From: a virus
Taxonomy: Duplodnaviria > Heunggongvirae > Uroviricota > Caudoviricetes
Length of the DNA: 35,370 bases
Strand: one strand, 5' to 3'
Virus record (IMG/VR): IMGVR_UViG_2778261227_000014
The position numbers were made by a program, and so were the translations under genes. Positions 9,353 through 34,629 of the stretch are shown piece after piece. Position 1 is the stretch's first letter. Each line of letters opens with the position of its first letter. The notes under the pieces are model-generated. The model had not been told where the DNA came from. It searched no databases and was given only the letters and a program-made list of their open reading frames with translations.

Positions 9353-10312
9353 ATGAAAATTTGTATCGATGACGGCTCCACCAACATCAAGCTGGCATGG
9401 ACTGAGAACGGCGAACGCCGCAACGCCATCAGCCCGAACAGCTTCAAGTCGGAATGGTCTGCGCCGTTCGGTGGCACGCAGCCCGCGAACTACATGCTTG
9501 ATGGCGTGCGCTATGGTTTTGATCCGGTCAGCGATCGCTTTGTCCAGACGACCGACACGCAATACCAGTACAGCGATGTGAATGTCATTGCCATTCATCA
9601 CGCGCTGGTCAAATCAGGCATCACACCACAGGAAGTGGATGTGGTTGTCACCCTGCCACTGAGCGAATATTTCGACACAAACGCACAGCCGGACATGGCC
9701 AACATCAACCGCAAAAAAGCAAACGTCATGCGTCCGGTGGCGTACCAGAACGGAAAAGCATTCACTATCCGTAACGTACGGGTTATGCCTGAATCCATTC
9801 CGGCTGGTTTTAAAGCACTGGCTGACATGAGTCCGTTTGAATCCCTGCTGATTGTGGATTTAGGCGGAACCACGCTGGATGTGGCAAAGGTTCAGGGACA
9901 ACTGGCGGGTATCAGCCAGGTGTTTTGCGATCCACACGTAGGCGTTTCCCTGATGGCCGATGCCGTACTGTCGGTGATGGCCACTAACGGTATGCGCACC
10001 AGTCACCACATCGCCAATACCATTATCGAACATCGCCATGATGAAGCCTGGCTGCGCCAGCACATCCACAATGACGCGCATTACGCCAGCCTGATGGCGG
10101 TTATTCGTGAAAAGGAAGAAACACTGAAACAACGCGTGATCCGCGCGCTGGCGGTTTTTTCGGGTTACGGGCGGGTGATGGTTGTCGGTGGCGGGGCGGA
10201 GATTGTGGCACCCGCTATCCGCGAAGCCTGCGGAGTTAATGCGACTTTCATCGCGGACGGGGTGCCACAATTTGCTCTGGTTAATGGGCTGTACGCAATG
10301 AACAAGGAGTAA
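9353..10312 (+). CDS. parM: ParM/StbA-like actin-type segregation ATPase
   Basis: 319 aa; N-terminal MKICIDDGSTNIKLAW closely matches plasmid R1 ParM (MLVFIDDGSTNIKLQW, from memory); further shared blocks YSDVNVIAIHHAL, VMPESIPAG, LLIVDLGGTTLD, GVSL, FSGY, VMVVGGGAEI, LVNGLY. AGGA RBS 8 nt upstream. Confidence 0.8.
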   Translation: MKICIDDGSTNIKLAWTENGERRNAISPNSFKSEWSAPFGGTQPANYMLDGVRYGFDPVSDRFVQTTDTQYQYSDVNVIAIHHALVKSGITPQEVDVVVTLPLSEYFDTNAQPDMANINRKKANVMRPVAYQNGKAFTIRNVRVMPESIPAGFKALADMSPFESLLIVDLGGTTLDVAKVQGQLAGISQVFCDPHVGVSLMADAVLSVMATNGMRTSHHIANTIIEHRHDEAWLRQHIHNDAHYASLMAVIREKEETLKQRVIRALAVFSGYGRVMVVGGGAEIVAPAIREACGVNATFIADGVPQFALVNGLYAMNKE

Positions 10313-10316
10313 ACCA

Positions 10317-10628
10317 ATGACGACACCAACCAGAAGAATAAGTTTCTATCTGAAGCCAGCTGCCGTCAAGAACGAAGGAGAAGCATGCGCCTGGCTGGAC
10401 AGCCTTACACCAGAAGCCCGCAAAAGCGGCCAACGCGTGGCTTTTCTGGCCGGGCTGGCACTTCTGAAGACGAATCCGGCAGAGGCTTACCGACTGGCCG
10501 CATGGGCTGATGATGAGATGTTACCTGTGACACAAATCAGCTCAAAAAAGTTTGAAGCACAGTCTGCACCAGTGGCTAAGATAACCAGCCAGATGGCTGG
10601 GAATATCCGGGCGTTATTTCCTGAGTAA
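10317..10628 (+). CDS. parR: ParR/StbB-like DNA-binding adaptor protein
   Basis: 103 aa directly downstream of the parM-like gene; ISFYLKP, AFLAGLALLKTNPAEAY and IRALFPE parallel R1 ParR (IAFKLNP, AALTAGLALYRQDP, LRSLFPKE, from memory); AGGAG RBS. Confidence 0.65.
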   Translation: MTTPTRRISFYLKPAAVKNEGEACAWLDSLTPEARKSGQRVAFLAGLALLKTNPAEAYRLAAWADDEMLPVTQISSKKFEAQSAPVAKITSQMAGNIRALFPE

Positions 10629-10642
10629 AAGCATCTGCGCGA

Positions 10643-10684
10643 AAAATGCTCACGTTTATAGAGAAAATGCTCACGTTTATAGAG
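10643..10684. repeat. Perfect tandem duplication of a 21-bp unit just downstream of the parR-like gene
   Basis: aaaatgctcacgtttatagag at 10643-10663 repeated at 10664-10684. Confidence 0.7.
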
Positions 10685-10777
10685 ACAGTATCATTCCATT
10701 TGGCACACTTACTTCAATAATCGATCTGTTAAACAAATAGATTGTCTATTATCTATCGATTAAAACGATCAATTATC

Positions 10778-10806
10778 TTGACAGTAATGTGCCTTTTTGT
10801 AAGATC
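10778..10806 (+). promoter_or_regulatory. Candidate sigma70 promoter
   Basis: Perfect TTGACA at 10778-10783, 16-17 bp spacer, TAAGAT at 10800-10805; points toward the 11014 gene. Confidence 0.4.
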
Positions 10807-10856
10807 GTTCGCATTGTGAGCGACAAGATAATTGCGCGGCATTGTCCATGCAAAAC

Positions 10857-10882
10857 GCCCCAATAGCAGCAACTATTGGGGC
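10857..10882 (+). other. 10-bp-stem hairpin (possible 5'UTR structure or binding site)
   Basis: gccccaatag-cagcaa-ctattggggc, perfect inverted repeat. Confidence 0.4.
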
Positions 10883-11013
10883 GTAAAACTCGGTCGGACT
10901 CACTTAACCTGATATGCGTGCCTTCCGAAGTAAATCAAAATGTGCGTCGTATATTTTATTGCTTACACGCACCTCTGTAAAGGCACGCATATTTTTCCTA
11001 TGAGGTAAATAAA

Positions 11014-11283
11014 GTGCGGGCTAAAACAGGTATTTGCAAGAACCCTCATCGTTATAATCCAACATTTCTGTCTCTCCCTGAATATCAAGGACAAGAAGGT
11101 CGGCACAAATGCGCTGCCTGTGCTTTTGAGCTAGGCATAAAAGATGCGCTTGAAGGACGCGCTATGGCTCAGAATGATTTAGTTTTAGCTAACATTCCGT
11201 TTAGCCAGGCTGGAACTGTAAGGCACAGAGATGCCTATGAAGCATATGTTCGTGGTTGGCGATTAATACACAGCAACAATTGA
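11014..11283 (+). CDS. Small hypothetical protein with Cys/His cluster
   Basis: 89 aa from GTG at 11014 with GAGG 8 nt upstream; CKNPHRYNP...HKCAACAF; flanked by its own promoter-like region and a downstream terminator. Confidence 0.45.
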   Translation: MRAKTGICKNPHRYNPTFLSLPEYQGQEGRHKCAACAFELGIKDALEGRAMAQNDLVLANIPFSQAGTVRHRDAYEAYVRGWRLIHSNN

Positions 11284-11291
11284 TACTTTTG

Positions 11292-11316
11292 AAGCGCCGA
11301 TAAGGCGCTTTTTTTG
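11292..11316 (+). terminator. Rho-independent terminator
   Basis: agcgcc-gataa-ggcgct hairpin followed by T7 directly after the 11283 stop. Confidence 0.7.
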
Positions 11317-11707
11317 TTTGCACGATAGTGCACAAGTTTGCACAATTTTTTTGAACGACTTTTTGTACTTCCGGCCCGCGTGGTGGCTGGATCCGTCAAG
11401 GATCCGTACGTGCACAAAAAAACGCGTTTTTTCTGCGCGCAGGTGACGGGGGAACAGCCCGCGTTTCAGGGGGTAAATAGCATTCCCTGAACGATGTCGC
11501 AGAGATACAACAGAATGGCTGTATTTCTCACGCTGAGCGTGAAAAAGACGTGAGGGCTTTTGATTTAGGTAAGGCCGTCAAAATCGCACTGAGACGGCGA
11601 GAACATGCAGTCAACGCGGTGGGATTGCGTAAGAGTCTGACTGTCGATGATGGCAATCAGCAGAAAAGCATCGTGAAATTATCTGACTGATACAGGAGCT
11701 GGAGAGT

Positions 11708-11732
11708 CGGGGCATAAATTTTTTATGCCCCG
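11708..11732. other. Hairpin adjacent to the portal gene stop
   Basis: cggggcata-aattttt-tatgccccg at 11708-11732, 27 bp beyond the Q stop; no clean T-run on either side. Confidence 0.35.
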
Positions 11733-11758
11733 GCGAAGCAGCAGACAAGCGAAGCGCG

Positions 11759-12805
11759 TCAGGATGTGGGCTGGGTGTCTAACAGTGCGTAAGGGTTAAA
11801 GCGGATCACCTCTTCGCCAAGCCAGTCATTGATGTGCTTCATGGCCTCCATGACAGGCATCAGCTCGTTAATTGCGTAAACCCGCGCGGCCTTCTCCACA
11901 TCGCCAAACGCACTTTTTTCGCCCGGCATCGCCCCCATCAGTTGCGGCGGAACGCGGTGCGCAGCCAGCACATCATCACGGGATGCCGCCTTAACATTCA
12001 TGAACTCATCCTTTGCGGTGATCTGCTGGAACGGCAAAATTTGCACCCCCTCTTTGCCCCCGTTGGGCGCATGAATGAGCACGTTTTTAAATGCACCACC
12101 ACCACGCGCACCCTGTAGCGTTTCCTTCAGGGAGTCCATGCTTTCGCGGTTTACCTGCGCTGCACCGATGTAGATGATGCACCCGGCGTGGGAGCCGTTG
12201 TCGTAATACAGTTTTCTGAACATGTCCGCCGAATGAGACAGGCTGGCCGAGAGTAATGCGCCGAGATATTCCGGCATGCCGTAGATTTCCTGGTTAATGT
12301 CAGGATTCATCAGGTGGCACACTTTGCCAGGGCGAAACTGAAACGCGTCCTTGCCATCCTGCACATACCACCATGATTCAAGATCGCTTCCGCGTCGCAT
12401 GTATTTCGCCAGGGCGTGCCGTAATTTAAGTGGTTCGCCGAGCATATTGCTTCGAAGCTCAAGGAATGCGTTACCGAACACAAACCAGTCCAGCGCCAGC
12501 GCCGAGAAATCCTGCCGGGAAAGCAGCGGATGCGGAATATAGCAGCCGAGCAATACATTACGCTTAAAGTAAAGCGCAGACTGATGCCAGGACGTTTGCC
12601 GGGCAGCTCTTGCCAGACCGTACCAGTCCACCGGGGTTTCATACCACCGACCGTTATCAGCACAGTACATATTGTCCAGCAGGTCATGCCCGGTCAGGCG
12701 GTAAGGACCATCAAATGTGAATGCACTGAGCGACGATTCTTTCCTGAGCGCATCAGCGAGATCAATGCGTGAACTCATGCGCACTTTTTTATTTTTTCTG
12801 CTCAT
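11759..12805 (-). CDS. Q: Portal protein, P2 gpQ-like
   Basis: 348 aa, ATG at 12805 overlapping the P stop (ATGA); size and position match P2 Q, leftward and adjacent to terminase. Confidence 0.85.
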   Translation of the reverse strand: MSRKNKKVRMSSRIDLADALRKESSLSAFTFDGPYRLTGHDLLDNMYCADNGRWYETPVDWYGLARAARQTSWHQSALYFKRNVLLGCYIPHPLLSRQDFSALALDWFVFGNAFLELRSNMLGEPLKLRHALAKYMRRGSDLESWWYVQDGKDAFQFRPGKVCHLMNPDINQEIYGMPEYLGALLSASLSHSADMFRKLYYDNGSHAGCIIYIGAAQVNRESMDSLKETLQGARGGGAFKNVLIHAPNGGKEGVQILPFQQITAKDEFMNVKAASRDDVLAAHRVPPQLMGAMPGEKSAFGDVEKAARVYAINELMPVMEAMKHINDWLGEEVIRFNPYALLDTQPTS

Positions 12806-22968: not shown

Positions 22969-24948
22969 ATGAGTACCACAACACGAAAATTTAAAACCAT
23001 TATCACTGATACTGGTGCCAAAAAATTAGCTCAGGCTGCCGCGCCAGATGGTAATCCTGTCCGCCTGACTCATATGGCCGTGGGCGACGGTGGCGGCACG
23101 TTGCCCACACCAGACAGTAAGCAGACCCATCTGGTGCATGAGGTGTGGCGACATACTGTTAATCGCGTCATCCTGGACGCAACACATCAGAACCGCATTA
23201 TTGCAGAGCTGGTTATCCCTCCTGAAACGGGCGGGTTCTGGATCCGGGAAATTGGTGTATTTGATGAGCACGGCGATTTGATCGCGGTGGGCAATACTGC
23301 CGAAAGTTACAAGCCAACCGTTGCCGAAGGATCCGGACGTGCACAAACATTTCGCACCATTCTGACCGTATCCAGCACTGCCACCGTGGCGCTTACCGTG
23401 GATAACACCATGGTTATGGCCACAGTGGATTACGTGAATGACAAACTGAAAGAGCATGAACAGTCACGACGTCACCCGGACGCCTCGCTGACCGCAAAAG
23501 GCTTTGTTCAACTCAGTAGCGCCACCAACAGCACGTCTGAAGCACTGGCCGCAACGCCGAAAGCGGTCAAGGCAGCCTATGACCTTGCTAACGGGAAATA
23601 TACCGCTCAGGATGCCACGACGGCACGAAAAGGAATAGTCCAGCTCAGTAGCGCCACCAACAGCACGTCTGAAGCACTGGCCGCAACACCGAAAGCGGTA
23701 AAGACAGCATATGACCTTGCTAACGGGAAATATACCGCTCAAGACGCTACGACAGCACAAAAAGGGATTGTCCAGCTAAGCAGCGCGACTAACAGCACAT
23801 CTGAAACGCTTGCCGCGACACCGAAAGCAGTGAAAGCAGCTAATGACAATGCGAATGGTCGGGTACCTTCTGCCCGTAAGGTGAATGGTAAGGCGCTTTC
23901 AGCGGATATAACACTGACACCGAAAGATATTGGTACGCTTAACTCAACAACTATGTCATTCAGCGGTGGTGCTGGTTGGTTCAAATTAGCAACGGTAACC
24001 ATGCCGCAGGCGAGTTCTGTTGTTTCAATTACGTTGATTGGTGGGGCTGGATATAACGTCGGTTCACCTCAACAGGCAGGTATATCTGAACTTGTTTTGC
24101 GTGCAGGTGATGGTAATCCGAAGGGGATTACTGGTGCTTTATGGCAGCGCACATCGGCAGGGTTTACAAATTTTGCCTGGGTCAATACATCTGGTGATAC
24201 TTACGATATTTACGTTGCAATCGGAAATTATGCGACTGGTGTAAATATTCAATGGGATTATACCAGTAATGCCAGCGTAACGATTCATACATCACCAGCA
24301 TATTCTGCTAATAAGCCGGAAGGGTTAACGGACGGTACAGTTTATTCACTCTATACGCCATCAGAGCAGTTTTATCCGCCTGGCGCACCAATCCCGTGGC
24401 CATCGGATACCGTTCCGTCTGGTTATGCCCTGATGCAGGGGCAGACTTTTGACAAATCTGCCTACCCGAAACTTGCAGTCGCTTATCCGTCAGGCGTGAT
24501 CCCTGATATGCGTGGCTGGACGATTAAGGGCAAGCCCGCCAGTGGTCGTGCCGTATTGTCTCAGGAACAGGACGGCATTAAATCGCACACCCACAGCGCC
24601 AGCGCATCCAGTACGGATTTGGGGACGAAAACCACATCGTCGTTTGATTACGGAACTAAATCCACAAATAACACCGGAGCACATACACACAACTTTGCTT
24701 ACAACAATACTTCAGCATACGCAGAAACTCCCGGTACCGGTGGTGGAATGCATGCAACTAACACAAGCAAGACAGCAAGTAATCGCGTATTAAGCGCAGG
24801 AGCTCATACTCACACAGTAGCAATAGGTGCGCATACACATACGCTCGCTATTGGTTCGCACACACACACCATTACCATTGCCGCTTATGGCAACGCGGAA
24901 AACACCGTAAAAAACATCGCATTTAACTATATTGTGAGGCTTGCATAA
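22969..24948 (+). CDS. H: Tail fibre protein, P2 gpH-like, with internal tandem repeats and C-terminal His-Thr repeats
   Basis: 659 aa; conserved N-terminal anchor region; three tandem copies of about 40 aa; C-terminal [31 protein letters not shown]. Confidence 0.85.
23497..23856 (+). repeat. About 3 x 120-bp tandem repeat inside the tail fibre gene
   Basis: Near-identical units encoding (K/R)G(F/I)[12 protein letters not shown](A/T)LAATPKAVK(A/T)[17 protein letters not shown]. Confidence 0.8.
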
Positions 24949-25547
24949 TGGCATTCAGAATGAGTGAACAACCACGAACCATAAAAATTTATAATCTGCT
25001 GGTCGGAACCAATGAATTTATTGGTGAAGGTGATGCATACATTCCACCTCATACAGGTCTACCTGCAAATAGTACTGATATTGCTCCGCCAGATATTCCA
25101 GCTGGCTTCGTGGCTATTTTCAACAGTGATGAGGCATCGTGGCATCTTGTTGAAGACCATCGGGGTAAAACAGTTTATGACGTGGCATCAGGGGACGCGT
25201 TATTTATTTCTGAACTCGGCTCATTACCGGAAAATGTCACTTGGTTATCCCCGGAAGGGGAGTTTCAGAAGTGGAACGGCACAACGTGGGTGAAAGATGC
25301 AGAAGCAGAAAAAGTGTTCCGGATACGGGAGGCGGAAGAAACAAAAAACAGCCTCATGCAGGTAGCCAGTGAGCATATTTCGCCACTTCAAGATGCCGTA
25401 GATTTGAATATTGCAACAGAGGAAGAAACATCGTTACTGGTGGCATGGAAGAAGTATCGAGTGCTGCTGAACCGTGTTGATACATCAAGAGCACCGGATA
25501 TTGAGTGGCCAGCTTCCCCAGTGGAATCAAGGAGTAAACAAGCATAA
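24948..25547 (+). CDS. G: Tail fibre assembly chaperone, P2 gpG-like
   Basis: 199 aa immediately after H (TAATG overlap). Confidence 0.8.
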
Positions 25548-25641
25548 AGGCTTTCATTTCAAACCATTGTAGTACAGTTTTTTGTATAGTACCCTGCTCA
25601 TTTCGGATGACATGTGTGATTTGGAATTTCAGGGTACCATT

Positions 25642-26820
25642 ATGAATGTTATTTCATCATTAAAACAGCTTAACAGACAGCGAAATATTAAAACAAAAAA
25701 GATAAAGACGAAGGCCAGACTGGCATTTCTAAAAATGCGATACAGAAGGAAAACATCATTACAGCCGAATAGTTATAAAACAGTGTGCATTTTCATGCAC
25801 ATGCAAGCCATTGGTGACGGCATCGTTACCTCAGGGTTTATTAAACAACTTCAAAAATCCGGTATGGTGGTATATGTGATAGCACCTTCAAGAGTATCAT
25901 TCCTCTTTACTGATATTGTTGGCGTGGATGCCTTTATATCTTACGAGAAAAATAAATTTAACGAACTAAAAGCAAAGATAAAAAAACTGAATGTAGATCT
26001 TGTTGTTGACTTCTCAAATTTTGATAACACAGCGATAACCAGATTGCAAACACTACATTTACTTAGACCTAAACACTCTATCTGTTTTAATCATCCTGCC
26101 GTAACTATTTTTGATACAAATATAATCGATAATCGTTCCATTCACACATCTGAAAGAATGAAAAAAGTTTTATCTTTACTAAAGATAAAAAATAATAATT
26201 ATGCTGCAGCACTTAATTTTGACAACAAAACATATGAACCAGCAAATATTGTTGCAAATGAATTCAGGAAGAAAAACAAAAAATTAGTTATATTTAACCC
26301 TTATGGCTCTCAGAATAGCAGAACCTTATCTGATGAACAGATAAACAAAGTACTAGCTTACCTTAATAACCTTAAGGGATATCACACAATAGTTTTTAAT
26401 ATGGGAAAACAGATTAATCACAATGGATTGGATAATGTGTCTCTATCTCCATTTTCTGATGCCGGATGTTCATTTGCATTGGTTCGCCATGCTGATTTTG
26501 TTATAACTGTAGATACTGCCATTGTACATTTAGCCAGTGCATTAAACATTAGACAATACTGTATATATAATAACAGAATGCATGAAGGAAAATTCGAAAA
26601 TAATATTGTGTGGGGGCCAAACAGCAAATTAGCGACTCAACTCACCACATCCGAACATCTAAGGTCTGAAGGGGGCGACGATATGCATAAATTCGACATA
26701 ATGATCTTAATTAATGCTATCAAACAAGATTTGACAAACGATATACCGAATTACCACTCGGATTTAGGTTGTAAAAATAGATCCAGAAACCCAGAATTAG
26801 AAAGTAGCAATTCTTTATAA
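25642..26820 (+). CDS. Glycosyltransferase family 9-like (heptosyltransferase-like) moron; start uncertain (ATG 25612 or 25642; the track start 25582 is TTG)
   Basis: Strongly AT-rich versus flanking phage genes; N-terminal VCIFMHMQAIGDGIVTSGFIKQL resembles the GT9 ILVIRLxAIGDxxxTxP box, and C-terminal FVITVDTAIVHLASALNIRQY resembles the GT9 NDSGPMHLAAAL box. Sits at the P2 Z/fun position. Confidence 0.55.
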   Translation: MNVISSLKQLNRQRNIKTKKIKTKARLAFLKMRYRRKTSLQPNSYKTVCIFMHMQAIGDGIVTSGFIKQLQKSGMVVYVIAPSRVSFLFTDIVGVDAFISYEKNKFNELKAKIKKLNVDLVVDFSNFDNTAITRLQTLHLLRPKHSICFNHPAVTIFDTNIIDNRSIHTSERMKKVLSLLKIKNNNYAAALNFDNKTYEPANIVANEFRKKNKKLVIFNPYGSQNSRTLSDEQINKVLAYLNNLKGYHTIVFNMGKQINHNGLDNVSLSPFSDAGCSFALVRHADFVITVDTAIVHLASALNIRQYCIYNNRMHEGKFENNIVWGPNSKLATQLTTSEHLRSEGGDDMHKFDIMILINAIKQDLTNDIPNYHSDLGCKNRSRNPELESSNSL

Positions 26821-26916
26821 AGTAGAAACCTCAACAGTTTTATCAGGACCTACGATATATTATATAACAACAAGCCGCCCATTACCCAATATGAGGGTAT
26901 TAGCGGCAATGTAAAA

Positions 26917-27411
26917 TCAAAACAGTCCTTTAACTGAACTGGCCGCGCTGTTAAGGGATGATGTGACCTTATCTTTGAAGCCGGACAGCATATCACTGAA
27001 CGATGAGGATTGCAGACGCTCCCGCAAATCCTCATCACAGCGTTCAAGGGTCAGTGAAAATTCTATCTTTTTCGCCTTACCGTAGCGATCAAACTCGGAA
27101 CGGGTCGTATTCGTTTCAGTCAGTACATACATGCCGTAAATCTGCCCGACACCATCAATCAGAGGCCAGGGGCGTCCTGTATATGCCTGCGTGGTCAGCA
27201 ACGAAAGCGACACTTCGCCACCTGTAATTTCAGGATAAAGCACGCCGGAAAGCACGATGCGATCATCACCTGCGCCGATATACTGCCAGCTTGCTGAACG
27301 GTTAACGCGTTCATTTTTCACATGCCGCCAGCTTTTGTTTTGCTGTAACTGCTGATGCGGCAATGTGCGCAGCTCAAAAACAAACATGCCGTAGATCATC
27401 ATCATGGCCAT
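26917..27411 (-). CDS. U: Tail protein, P2 gpU-like
   Basis: 164 aa; WRH, LSGVLYPEITGG and RPWPLIDG.G.IYGM.V blocks match P2 U. Confidence 0.85.
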   Translation of the reverse strand: MAMMMIYGMFVFELRTLPHQQLQQNKSWRHVKNERVNRSASWQYIGAGDDRIVLSGVLYPEITGGEVSLSLLTTQAYTGRPWPLIDGVGQIYGMYVLTETNTTRSEFDRYGKAKKIEFSLTLERCDEDLRERLQSSSFSDMLSGFKDKVTSSLNSAASSVKGLF

Positions 27412-33963: not shown

Positions 33964-34629
33964 ATGAATATGCAAATTTTTATCGCACCAGCAGCCACAG
34001 TTGCTGCAGTCTGCCTTGCTGCATATTTTGCTTTACGAAATGAACGTAAAAAGAAAGCACTTGAGATTAGAACAACTCAACTAGATCGAATATCAGAGCT
34101 AGTAAACCGAGCATCTACCAATTTGATGCAATATACAGGTACTCTTGCCTCTATACTGGAAGCGCACGCCAAAGATAATTATCTACCGAACAAAAAATTT
34201 GACATTAATGTAATTAGCAAATGGAAAGATTGCCTCGATGAGAGTGAGGTCTGGGCGATTGATAGACAGCAACTAAGAACATGTCAGCACAGTCTGGAGT
34301 TTCATCGTGAAAAAGAATGGGCTGAATGGAAAAAAATAATTCCACCATTACTTGATAAAATTGACCAATTTTTTCTCATATCTAAGCCAGGGCAACCTGT
34401 TACGTTTATAAATGGCCAAAACAAAACAGCTGATGAACTACTTGTTTTCTCAAGATATTTGAGAAAACAAACAGCAGAAATTGAATCAGTACGTCAGCTG
34501 TTACTTTCTCAAATGAGAGAGGAATTCATCGAGTTAACTAGCTTTGAACCTGTCACAATGTTTAGCTTATTTAAATCAATAAAGAAAAATGTCATGCAAT
34601 TTTTCTGTATCAGTGCTCTTAAAAATTGA
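33964..34629 (+). CDS. AT-rich moron: protein with N-terminal TM helix, function unknown
   Basis: 221 aa, AAGGA RBS 8 nt upstream; N-terminal MNMQIFIAPAATVAAVCLAAYFAL is hydrophobic; composition distinct from flanking phage genes; followed by a terminator. Confidence 0.6.
   Translation: MNMQIFIAPAATVAAVCLAAYFALRNERKKKALEIRTTQLDRISELVNRASTNLMQYTGTLASILEAHAKDNYLPNKKFDINVISKWKDCLDESEVWAIDRQQLRTCQHSLEFHREKEWAEWKKIIPPLLDKIDQFFLISKPGQPVTFINGQNKTADELLVFSRYLRKQTAEIESVRQLLLSQMREEFIELTSFEPVTMFSLFKSIKKNVMQFFCISALKN

What the first reader, a model, noticed from the sequence alone, without database searches (positions are those of the whole stretch)
25582..26916. Low-GC glycosyltransferase-like moron at the Z/fun hotspot
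A roughly 390-412 aa protein with both signature boxes of GT9 heptosyltransferase-like enzymes sits between the tail-fibre assembly gene and the tail block, in DNA far more AT-rich than the phage backbone. A phage-borne LPS core- or O-antigen-modifying enzyme would be a lysogenic-conversion or superinfection-exclusion function. The start codon is ambiguous (25612 or 25642). A weak hairpin at about 26874-26907 may act as a terminator between the convergent genes.
Basis: partly seen in the sequence, partly recalled or inferred. Interest (0 to 1): 0.65.

Follow-up and report, generated by a model that had tools for sequence, protein, structure and literature searches.

The report
Phage-borne LPS-core glycosyltransferase gene
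A P2-like E. coli prophage carries, right after its tail-fibre genes, a divergent relative of the bacterial enzymes that add the last side-branch sugar to the LPS core. It probably remodels the cell-surface receptor that phages bind, but the enzyme class is already annotated and its role is untested.

Summary
A 392-aa ORF (25642-26820, +) of 33% GC lies in a ~55% GC P88-like (Xuanwuvirus) prophage, between the tail-fibre assembly gene and the convergent tail gene U.

It is a real but divergent GT9 enzyme:
- Pfam PF01075 scores just above its cutoff.
- The AlphaFold model (pLDDT 88.8) is closest to GT9, WaaC and WaaF structures.
- A deep profile aligns to the whole of WaaC with the catalytic Asp and donor-binding box conserved.
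- The nearest characterised relative is E. coli K-12 WaaU (23% identity), in the WaaU/WaaK outer-core branch subfamily.

Homologues sit in LPS loci: a Serratia waa operon in the WaaU/WaaK slot, and Orbaceae and Vibrio core clusters. Other copies sit directly downstream of tail-fibre genes in at least three other phage contexts. dN/dS is about 0.16.

Best reading: a single-gene cargo that adds a sugar to the host LPS core and so changes phage receptors and possibly O-antigen ligation. The donor sugar, the acceptor and the timing of expression are unknown.

- The start codon is 25642.
- The slot is analogous to P2 Z/fun, not the same locus.
- Low GC is a trait of this gene family.
- The hairpin is a remnant of the backbone terminator and has no U-tract on the + strand.

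RefSeq already names it a GT9 protein. Interest is moderate.

The parts
25642..26820 (+). Glycosyltransferase gene: 392 aa plus stop, a GT9 GT-B enzyme of the WaaU/WaaK-like subfamily
   Evidence: ORF. The start is set by homologue alignment and by PGAP. Pfam GT9 scores above its cutoff. AlphaFold model pLDDT 88.8. Foldseek top hits are GT9 3tov, WaaC and WaaF. 23% identity to K-12 WaaU, E 5e-17. dN/dS 0.16.
25548..25641 (+). 94-bp intergenic leader. It has no terminator after the fibre-assembly gene. It contains the unconserved in-frame extension (25582-25641) and a -10-like TATAGT at 25585-25590.
   Evidence: Sequence. No + strand promoter or terminator was found here. The empty-slot phage PhiR44_2 has a GC hairpin right after gene G that is absent here. 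The TATAGT block is shared with the 76%-identical relative L065.
25642..25776 (+). N-terminal extension of ~45 residues: a strongly basic helix (residues 3-33) with no counterpart in WaaC. It is a subfamily feature shared with WaaU and is possibly a membrane-interface anchor.
   Evidence: AlphaFold secondary structure. Near-invariant N11, R12, N15, K19, K22. The WaaC alignment starts at residue 46. The WaaU alignment starts at residue 24. The anchor role is inferred.
25813..25818 (+). G58-D59 box. D59 is equivalent to the WaaC D13 catalytic base.
   Evidence: Invariant in 35 sequences. Profile alignment to WaaC.
26296..26322 (+). N219-P220...R227 box. R227 is at the position of WaaC K192, the donor phosphate contact.
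   Evidence: Invariant columns. Alignment to WaaC. WaaU has R at the same position.
26509..26529 (+). V290-D291-T292-A-I-V295-H296 donor-sugar box, equivalent to WaaC D261-T-G-L-S-H266
   Evidence: Invariant columns. Aligned to WaaC by hmmsearch and hhalign.
26746..26817 (+). Disordered C-terminal tail (residues 369-392), found only in the E. coli phage copies
   Evidence: pLDDT below 50. Absent from most homologues.
26874..26907 (.). Imperfect hairpin at the right junction of the cargo. It is a remnant of the backbone's bidirectional terminator downstream of gene U.
   Evidence: Fold energies and z-scores. Its right arm ATTAGCGG is homologous to the right arm of the PhiR44_2 terminator AAAACCGCTAAT-CTGACC-ATTAGCGGTTTTT. 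There is no T-run on the + strand, and UUGUUGUUAUAU follows on the - strand.
25552..26894 (.). Approximate extent of the ~1.34-kb low-GC cargo relative to an empty-slot Xuanwuvirus
   Evidence: Alignment with the PhiR44_2 slot. The megablast match to P88 resumes at 26910. GC profile.
24948..25547 (+). Tail-fibre assembly gene (G-like), left neighbour on the same strand
   Evidence: Pfam Caudo_TAP E 8e-45. PGAP annotation of the same arrangement.
26917..27411 (-). Tail gene U, convergent right neighbour and last gene of the inverted tail block
   Evidence: PHROG 76 tail protein. Annotated as GpU in PhiR44_2.

Best explanation
What it is: the gene encodes a cytoplasmic, membrane-associated GT-B glycosyltransferase of family GT9. 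It belongs to the subfamily that includes E. coli K-12 WaaU (heptosyltransferase IV) and, according to the literature, WaaK (an outer-core GlcNAc transferase).

What it probably does: it uses a nucleotide sugar the host already makes (ADP-heptose or a UDP-sugar). It adds one extra residue to the lipid A-core, most likely as a branch on the outer core, before the molecule is exported. It is carried as a single-gene cargo next to the tail-fibre genes. The added residue would change the core epitope that core-binding phages recognise, giving receptor masking or superinfection exclusion. It could also alter O-antigen ligation.

Shown here: the enzyme class, the conserved catalytic residues, purifying selection, and the LPS-cluster context of homologues.

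Inferred: LPS core as the acceptor in E. coli, and the effect on phages.

Unknown: the donor sugar, the exact acceptor, and whether the gene is expressed in the lysogen or only with the late fibre operon.
For: Enzyme class:
- Pfam GT9 scores 26.7 bits against a cutoff of 22, and 33 of 35 family members hit it.
- The AlphaFold model is confident (pLDDT 88.8, pTM 0.85).
- Foldseek top hits are GT9 3tov at 1e-14, WaaC at 5e-13 and WaaF at 2e-11, with target TM about 0.7.
- A deep profile aligns residues 46-363 to WaaC 1-319 (probability 98.8%, E 7e-16), mapping D59 to D13, R227 to K192, D291 to D261 and H296 to H266.
- BLASTP against K-12 WaaU gives 23% identity over 335 aa, E 5e-17, including the N-terminal extension.

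LPS context of homologues:
- A 55%-identical homologue lies in a Serratia waa operon in the order waaC-waaL-waaQ-waaG-waaP-waaB-waaO-waaJ-[X]-waaA-coaD.
- Orbus and Gilliamella copies sit among GT2, GT8, WaaS-like and WaaU-like genes.
- More distant Vibrio relatives lie in mutM-coaD...waaA clusters.
- A Citrobacter copy sits at the flank of an O-antigen cluster.

Repeated capture by phages:
- Copies lie directly downstream of the fibre or fibre-assembly genes in Providencia stuartii and P. alcalifaciens myovirus prophages, in L065 and in L067.
- One copy sits beside an integrase fragment and a GT25 gene.

Functional constraint: dN/dS is 0.16 against the 76%-identical relative.

Literature: the RfaK/WaaK branch residue is the Felix O1 receptor, such branches probably hinder adsorption of another LPS phage, and the residue is needed by the WaaL ligase (PMC8744999; PMC13293308).
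Against: - There is no biochemical or phenotypic data of any kind.
- Similarity to characterised enzymes is low: 23% to WaaU, and the NCBIfam RfaQ and HepI models score far below their cutoffs.
- The Pfam match covers only the C-terminal half of the model.
- No sigma-70-like promoter was found upstream, and no terminator separates the gene from the late fibre operon. Expression in the lysogen, which lysogenic conversion needs, is therefore unproven.
- The receptor of this phage's fibre is unknown; the P88 paper does not define it.
- The LPS core type of the host strains was not determined.
- PADLOC has no model for it.
Confidence: 0.6

Rival explanations
1. Same enzyme and same LPS target, but it acts during lytic growth rather than in the lysogen. 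It would be co-transcribed with the late tail-fibre operon and would remodel the LPS core of the producing cell. Released progeny would then not be lost by adsorbing to debris or to sister cells, and late superinfection would be blocked. This is functionally similar to what is known for phage T5 Llp (from my own knowledge).
For: - The gene is on the same strand as genes H and G and 94 bp downstream of G.
- No + strand terminator or promoter was detected in the gap.
- The hairpin that follows G in the empty-slot phage PhiR44_2 is missing here.
- The same immediately-downstream, same-strand arrangement occurs in unrelated Providencia prophages.
Against: - The consensus promoter scan is weak evidence, and AT-rich leaders often hide promoters.
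- A TATAGT block is shared with the 76%-identical relative.
- New LPS takes time to reach and replace the surface, so a late-expressed cytoplasmic core enzyme would have limited effect before lysis (inference).
Confidence: 0.2
2. It is a protein glycosyltransferase, like the GT9-related autotransporter heptosyltransferases TibC and AAH. Its substrate would be the phage's own tail fibre or a host surface protein, not LPS.
For: - The gene is linked to tail-fibre genes in several phage lineages.
- TibC does appear among the fold matches.
- A phage protein annotated as Aah/TibC-like exists in BFVD.
Against: - TibC matches far less well than the LPS enzymes (E 2e-6 and TM 0.46, against 1e-14 and 0.70).
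- No cysteine is invariant in the family, whereas TibC uses an iron-binding Cys cluster (from my own knowledge).
- Chromosomal homologues lie inside waa/LPS clusters, not beside autotransporters.
- No autotransporter gene is nearby.
Confidence: 0.08
3. It is a silent or decaying passenger. The gene hitch-hiked with a recombined fibre module, is H-NS-silenced or inactive in E. coli, and has no current role.
For: - The DNA is AT-rich and no promoter was detected.
- It is present in only 49 of 5,426 complete E. coli genomes.
- One genome carries an IS5-family (ISKpn26) insertion within the matched locus.
- The Symbiopectobacterium copy is frameshifted.
Against: - The ORF is intact and 99% or more identical across dozens of unrelated E. 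coli strains.
- The 90% cluster has 536 member sequences.
- dN/dS is 0.16.
- All catalytic residues are invariant.
Confidence: 0.1

Closest known systems
E. coli K-12 WaaU (RfaK, heptosyltransferase IV) and R2/Salmonella WaaK (outer-core alpha-1,2-GlcNAc transferase), both GT9
   Same: - It shares the GT9 GT-B fold and the N-terminal extension ahead of the first Rossmann strand.
- The conserved boxes match: GD, NPxG..R and VDTxxVH.
- Similarity to WaaU runs the full length (23% identity, E 5e-17).
- A 55%-identical homologue occupies the equivalent last-gene-before-waaA slot in a Serratia waa operon.
- WaaU is similarly AT-rich at 31% GC.
   Different: - Identity to WaaU is only 23%, and WaaK itself was not compared here.
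- The gene is in a prophage, not in the waa locus.
- The donor sugar and acceptor are unknown.
- The host already has its own complete core pathway, so this enzyme would add to or compete with it rather than complete it.
WaaC and WaaF (LPS heptosyltransferases I and II; PDB 2H1H, 6DFE, 1PSW) and Veillonella GT9 (3TOV)
   Same: They are the closest solved folds. The catalytic Asp and the DTxxxH donor box are conserved.
   Different: - Identity is 12-16%.
- NCBIfam equivalog scores are far below cutoff (22.6 against 185.3 for HepI, 22.7 against 467 for RfaQ).
- This protein has an extra 45-residue N-terminal helix.
- It has Arg in place of WaaC K192.
Phage seroconversion systems (GtrABC glucosylation, Oac acetylation, Wzy/Iap swaps), cited from my own knowledge
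   Same: They are temperate-phage cargo that edits LPS and changes phage receptors and serotype.
   Different: - Those systems act on the O antigen, mostly in the periplasm, and use membrane proteins.
- This is a single soluble or peripheral GT-B enzyme predicted to act on the core at the cytoplasmic face.
- No GtrA, GtrB or acyltransferase family was detected in the protein.
P2 Z/fun locus and the P2 hotspots of Rousset et al. 2022 (PMC9122126)
   Same: It is a variable cargo slot next to the tail-fibre assembly gene of a P2-like phage. The other hotspot-type cargo described in that paper, a partition system, is also present in this window.
   Different: - The backbone is P88-like, with the tail block inverted, so the slot is bounded by G and U.
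- In relatives the slot holds an invertible fibre cassette with an invertase, or nothing.
- Neither hotspot paper mentions glycosyltransferases or LPS in its main text.

Membership tests
GT9 (Pfam PF01075 Glyco_transf_9) | Profile match above the curated gathering score | tested here: met
   26.7 bits against a cutoff of 22 (E 4e-6), but only model positions 102-212 of 247. 33 of 35 family members match, best E 4e-9.
GT9 (Pfam PF01075 Glyco_transf_9) | GT-B fold of two Rossmann-like domains, with GT9 enzymes as nearest solved structures | tested here: met
   Model pLDDT 88.8. 3tov, WaaC and WaaF are the top ten bacterial hits at E 1e-14 to 1e-10.
GT9 (Pfam PF01075 Glyco_transf_9) | Catalytic Asp in the N-terminal G-D box (WaaC D13), the C-terminal D-T-x-x-x-H box (WaaC D261/H266) and a basic residue at the K192 position | tested here: met
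   D59, D291, H296 and R227 are invariant and align to those WaaC positions. Arg replaces Lys, as in WaaU.
GT9 (Pfam PF01075 Glyco_transf_9) | Transfer of heptose or GlcNAc from a nucleotide sugar to lipid A-core | not testable with these tools
   This needs enzymology or LPS mass spectrometry.
WaaU/WaaK outer-core branch transferases | Full-length sequence similarity to a characterised member | tested here: met
   K-12 WaaU: 23% identity over 335 aa, E 5e-17. tblastn with WaaU also hits all family loci. The relationship is distant, and WaaK itself was not compared.
WaaU/WaaK outer-core branch transferases | Location in the waa core operon, as the last outer-core gene next to waaL or waaA | tested here: not met
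   The window gene is in a prophage. The feature is met only by homologues: Serratia L007, L008 and L032.
WaaC / WaaQ orthologues (NCBIfam equivalogs) | Score above the equivalog cutoff | tested here: not met
   RfaQ scores 22.7 against 467, and HepI scores 22.6 against 185.3.
Autotransporter heptosyltransferases (TibC/AAH) | Closest fold is TibC, with a conserved iron-binding Cys cluster and an adjacent autotransporter substrate gene | tested here: not met
   TibC matches at E 2e-6 and TM 0.46, far behind the LPS GT9 enzymes. There is no invariant Cys and no autotransporter nearby. The Cys-cluster criterion comes from my own knowledge.
P2 Z/fun locus | Lies between G and FI in a collinear P2 late region | tested here: not met
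   It lies between G (+) and U (-), with the FI-U block inverted, on a P88-like Xuanwuvirus backbone.
Phage moron (own promoter, gene, terminator, atypical composition) | Atypical composition, and variable presence between related phages | tested here: met
   33% GC against about 55%. The slot is empty in PhiR44_2 and holds an invertase cassette in P88 and Shae_phiSM.
Phage moron (own promoter, gene, terminator, atypical composition) | Own promoter and own terminator | tested here: inconclusive
   No consensus promoter was found in 25548-25641. A TATAGT block is shared with L065. The downstream hairpin lacks a U-tract on the + strand.
Known anti-phage defence systems (PADLOC) | Match to a defence-system protein model | tested here: not met
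   No families matched at E up to 1.

The most novel reading that the evidence does not exclude
This gene family is a mobile 'core-editing' module that moves between unrelated temperate phages together with, or next to, receptor-binding fibre modules. The phages involved are P2-like, E217/Pam3-like and a third type. By adding a branch sugar to the LPS core from the cytoplasmic side, it would mask the receptor used by the neighbouring fibre. That would be a lysogenic-conversion or exclusion mechanism acting on the core rather than the O antigen, and functionally coupled to the fibre. I found no description of such a mechanism in the searched literature.
Probability: 0.25. Interest if true: 0.6.

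Novelty: new member of a known kind. Interest (0 to 1): 0.4.

Why it matters
If the enzyme does edit the LPS core, a single 1.2-kb phage gene could change three things: which phages adsorb to an E. coli strain, how well O antigen is ligated, and how the core is seen by antibodies. That bears on phage-therapy host-range prediction and on LPS core typing, because typing from the waa locus alone would miss a prophage-encoded modification. The repeated position just after tail-fibre genes in different phage lineages also gives a simple, testable case of a phage carrying both a receptor-binding protein and an enzyme that may alter that receptor. Otherwise it is an ordinary, already-annotated GT9-family cargo gene.

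Tried and rejected
- Single-sequence search of PDB sequences gave only chance hits. A shallow family profile matched WaaC only at the DTxxxH box, at E about 0.07. A 35-sequence hhalign covered only 48 columns. A 160-sequence profile was needed to align the whole enzyme.
- The AFDB50 fold library was unavailable.
- PADLOC gave no hit.
- PHROG 36326 has no known function, and its model starts too late.
- I searched for an Ogr-type late-promoter motif, TGT-N12-ACA. There were only 3 matches in the window against about 9 expected by chance. The one in the region is a palindrome inside the ORF, so this was rejected as uninformative.
- Literature searches for the RefSeq accession, for phage-borne heptosyltransferases and for GT9 in prophages found no functional study, only annotation tables.
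- The two P2-hotspot papers do not mention glycosyltransferases or LPS in their main text; their supplementary tables were not checked.
- I considered low GC as proof of recent import from Providencia or Orbaceae. I rejected it as the only reading because the family is 28-36% GC everywhere, including in a Serratia waa operon, and K-12 waaU, waaL and waaS are 27-32%.
- I did not determine the waa core type of the 49 host genomes; the tools cannot target a named genome without coordinates.
- I did not compare the protein with WaaK directly because no WaaK sequence was at hand.
Full report
**What is there**

The window is a P2-like prophage. It carries an integrase, the GPA replication protein, a ParM/StbB partition module, a baseplate-fibre operon, and an inverted sheath-tube-tape-measure-U block. 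Its nearest named relatives are P88-like phages of the genus Xuanwuvirus.

Its left neighbour is a Caudo_TAP tail-fibre assembly gene (24948-25547, +). Its right neighbour is the convergent tail gene U (26917-27411, -). GC falls to 31-37% across 25501-27000 against about 55% on either side. The gene itself is 33.0% GC.

The same DNA, with both flanks, is present at 99% identity or more in 49 of 5,426 complete E. coli genomes. In all listed cases the annotation reads tail fiber assembly protein | glycosyltransferase family 9 protein | phage tail protein.

**Start codon and gene limits**

Thirty-four 90%-identity clusters of homologues exist. Every full-length one begins where the 25642 ATG lies and conserves the following basic segment (LNRQRNIKTKKIK). 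The 20 codons upstream, from 25582/25612, have no counterpart. PGAP uses the same start. The protein is therefore 392 aa (25642-26820 with the stop). The PHROG model for this family, 36326 of unknown function, begins 51 residues too late.

**What the protein is**

- Pfam Glyco_transf_9 is the only family hit. It scores 26.7 bits against a gathering score of 22 and covers only the C-terminal half of the model. 33 of 35 family members hit it.
- The NCBIfam equivalogs for WaaQ and WaaC score far below their cutoffs, so it is not an orthologue of either.
- An AlphaFold2 model built on the family alignment is confident (pLDDT 88.8, pTM 0.85). It shows two Rossmann-like domains, a 31-residue N-terminal helix ahead of the first strand, and a disordered last 24 residues.
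- Foldseek against the PDB puts GT9 enzymes first: Veillonella GT9 3tov at 1e-14, WaaC at 5e-13 and WaaF at 2e-11, with target TM about 0.7. The protein-heptosylating TibC is far behind at 2e-6 and TM 0.46.
- Sequence links to WaaC are marginal with a shallow profile. A 160-sequence profile built from the representative search aligns residues 46-363 to all of WaaC (probability 98.8%, E 7e-16). It places D59 on the catalytic D13, R227 on K192, and D291/H296 on D261/H266. All four residues are invariant in the family.
- The closest characterised relative I could test is E. coli K-12 WaaU: 23% identity over 335 residues, E 5e-17, including part of the N-terminal extension.
- According to PMC13293308, WaaU (heptosyltransferase IV) and WaaK (alpha-1,2-GlcNAc transferase) are interchangeable GT9 genes at one locus. 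Each adds the terminal side-branch residue that defines the O-antigen attachment site. Subfamily membership therefore does not reveal the donor sugar.

**Where relatives live**

This is the most informative evidence.

- A 55%-identical homologue lies inside a waa operon titled Serratia marcescens. The order is waaC-waaL-waaQ-waaG-waaP-waaB-waaO-waaJ-[homologue]-waaA-coaD-...-mutM, which corresponds to the WaaU/WaaK slot.
- In Orbus it sits with a GT2, a second GT9 and two sulfatase-family genes.
- In many Gilliamella genomes it sits among WaaO-, WaaJ- and WaaS-like genes, often beside a second WaaU-like paralogue.
- More distant Vibrio and Photobacterium relatives lie in mutM-coaD...waaA core clusters.
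- A Citrobacter copy lies between asmA and the galF/O-antigen genes.
- The family is also repeatedly phage-borne:
  - directly downstream of the fibre and fibre-assembly genes of E217/Pam3-type myovirus prophages in Providencia stuartii and P. alcalifaciens;
  - downstream of a fibre-assembly C-terminus in the 76%-identical relative L065;
  - next to fibre-like sequence in a third phage with holin, endolysin, terminase and portal genes;
  - near DinI and SocA genes;
  - beside an integrase fragment and a convergent GT25 gene.
- A Symbiopectobacterium copy is frameshifted and surrounded by IS elements next to smpB.
- A neighbour-joining tree without bootstrap support places the phage and mobile-element copies as a crown group nested within the chromosomal LPS-cluster copies, with WaaU as outgroup.
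- dN/dS against the 76% relative is 0.16, so the protein is under purifying selection.

**The slot and its junctions**

The space between G and U varies among P88-like phages. P88 and Shae_phiSM carry an invertible fibre cassette plus a DNA invertase there. PhiR44_2 has only about 250 bp. The slot is therefore a variable cargo site, but it is not the P2 Z/fun locus in the strict sense, because the FI-U tail block is inverted here.

Comparison with PhiR44_2 gives two results.

1. PhiR44_2 has a GC hairpin immediately after G that is absent from the window. The scan finds no + strand terminator, and no sigma-70-like promoter, between G and the glycosyltransferase gene.
2. The window hairpin at 26874-26907 shares its right arm (ATTAGCGG) and the following sequence with a canonical bidirectional terminator just downstream of U in PhiR44_2.

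The window hairpin is significantly stable, at -16.8 and -19.0 kcal/mol with z about -3.8. It has lost the T-run on the + strand and is followed by a U-rich stretch on the - strand. It more likely ends the tail operon than the glycosyltransferase transcript. A TATAGT hexamer at 25585-25590 lies in a block shared with the 76% relative. This hints at a promoter that travels with the gene but does not show one.

**Composition**

The family is 28-36% GC in every context, including the Serratia waa operon, whose waaC is 55% GC. E. coli's own waaU, waaL and waaS are 27-32% GC. Low GC marks this as cargo relative to the phage backbone. It is also a general trait of outer-core genes, so it does not on its own point to a specific donor.

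**Mechanism**

The best-supported model is as follows.

- The enzyme is peripheral to the inner membrane. The basic N-terminal helix may anchor it, which is an inference.
- It uses a host nucleotide sugar to add one residue to lipid A-core, most likely as an outer-core branch, before export.
- The literature shows that such branch residues can be phage receptors (Felix O1 and the RfaK-added GlcNAc). They can probably hinder adsorption of other LPS phages, and WaaL requires them (PMC8744999; PMC13293308).
- An added or competing branch would therefore plausibly change phage adsorption and perhaps O-antigen ligation.
- The enzyme class, conserved catalytic residues, selective constraint and LPS-cluster ancestry are shown. 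The acceptor in E. coli and the phage phenotype are inferred. The donor sugar and expression timing are open.

The rivals are:

- the same chemistry, but expressed only with the late fibre operon (confidence 0.2);
- protein glycosylation of the fibre or a surface protein (0.08), disfavoured by the fold ranking, the lack of conserved cysteines and the genomic contexts;
- a silent passenger (0.1), disfavoured by conservation and dN/dS.

**Novelty**

RefSeq already names the protein a GT9-family glycosyltransferase. GT9 genes have been listed in prophage catalogues. GT9-like folds also occur in uncultured phages in BFVD, at 9-16% identity. I found no functional study of this family or of a phage-borne LPS-core GT9 enzyme. 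The two P2-hotspot papers do not discuss it in their main text.

It is best filed as a new, divergent member of a known enzyme kind in a phage setting. The recurrent linkage to tail-fibre genes is the part that deserves an experiment.

Noticed in passing
window 9353-10628: A ParM/StbA-type actin-like segregation protein (319 aa) is followed by a Plasmid_stab_B protein (103 aa). Rousset et al. 2022 say that about a quarter of P2-like phages carry a putative partition system in their hotspot.
   Followed up: partly
window 10630-11758: About 1.1 kb between the partition module and the next long ORF on the - strand (11759-12805) has no ORF of 90 aa or more, and GC dips to 41-47%. It may hold cos or regulatory elements or small genes.
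   Followed up: no
window 33964-34629: A 221-aa ORF in a second low-GC patch (37%), just past tail gene D, has no Pfam, PHROG or PADLOC match. It may be another cargo gene.
   Followed up: partly
window 25784-25801: A perfect 7-bp-arm palindrome, TGTGCATTTTCATGCACA, lies inside the glycosyltransferase ORF at codons 48-53, just before the GD box. It matches TGT-N12-ACA and was flagged as terminator-like on the - strand. It is probably coincidental.
   Followed up: partly
window 22969-24948 and L001 3438-5549: The tail-fibre gene H carries three tandem Phage_fiber_2 repeats. Its length differs between prophages that carry the glycosyltransferase gene: 659 aa here and 703 aa in E. coli M9. The fibre and the cargo are therefore not a fixed unit.
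   Followed up: no
L068 77-4309: A 50%-identical homologue lies next to an integrase fragment and a convergent GT25 gene (an LOS/LPS-core galactosyltransferase family). This may be a two-enzyme mobile core-editing islet.
   Followed up: no
L012 10001-11112: The Symbiopectobacterium purcellii copy is split by a frameshift and flanked by several copies of IS transposase genes near smpB. It looks like a decayed prophage remnant.
   Followed up: partly
L015-L023 (Gilliamella loci), about 10001-12400: Bee-gut Gilliamella genomes often carry two paralogues of this subfamily in tandem within outer-core gene clusters rich in GT8 genes.
   Followed up: no
E. coli CH468, NZ_CM166354.1 4426592-4429392: One carrier genome has an IS5-like ISKpn26 element, plus two annotated hypothetical proteins, within the matched locus.
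   Followed up: no
L067 7893-9824: The gene called upstream of the homologue has portal-family Pfam hits, but its 3' part matches tail-fibre sequence. This suggests a deletion-fused prophage or a chimeric assembly.
   Followed up: no
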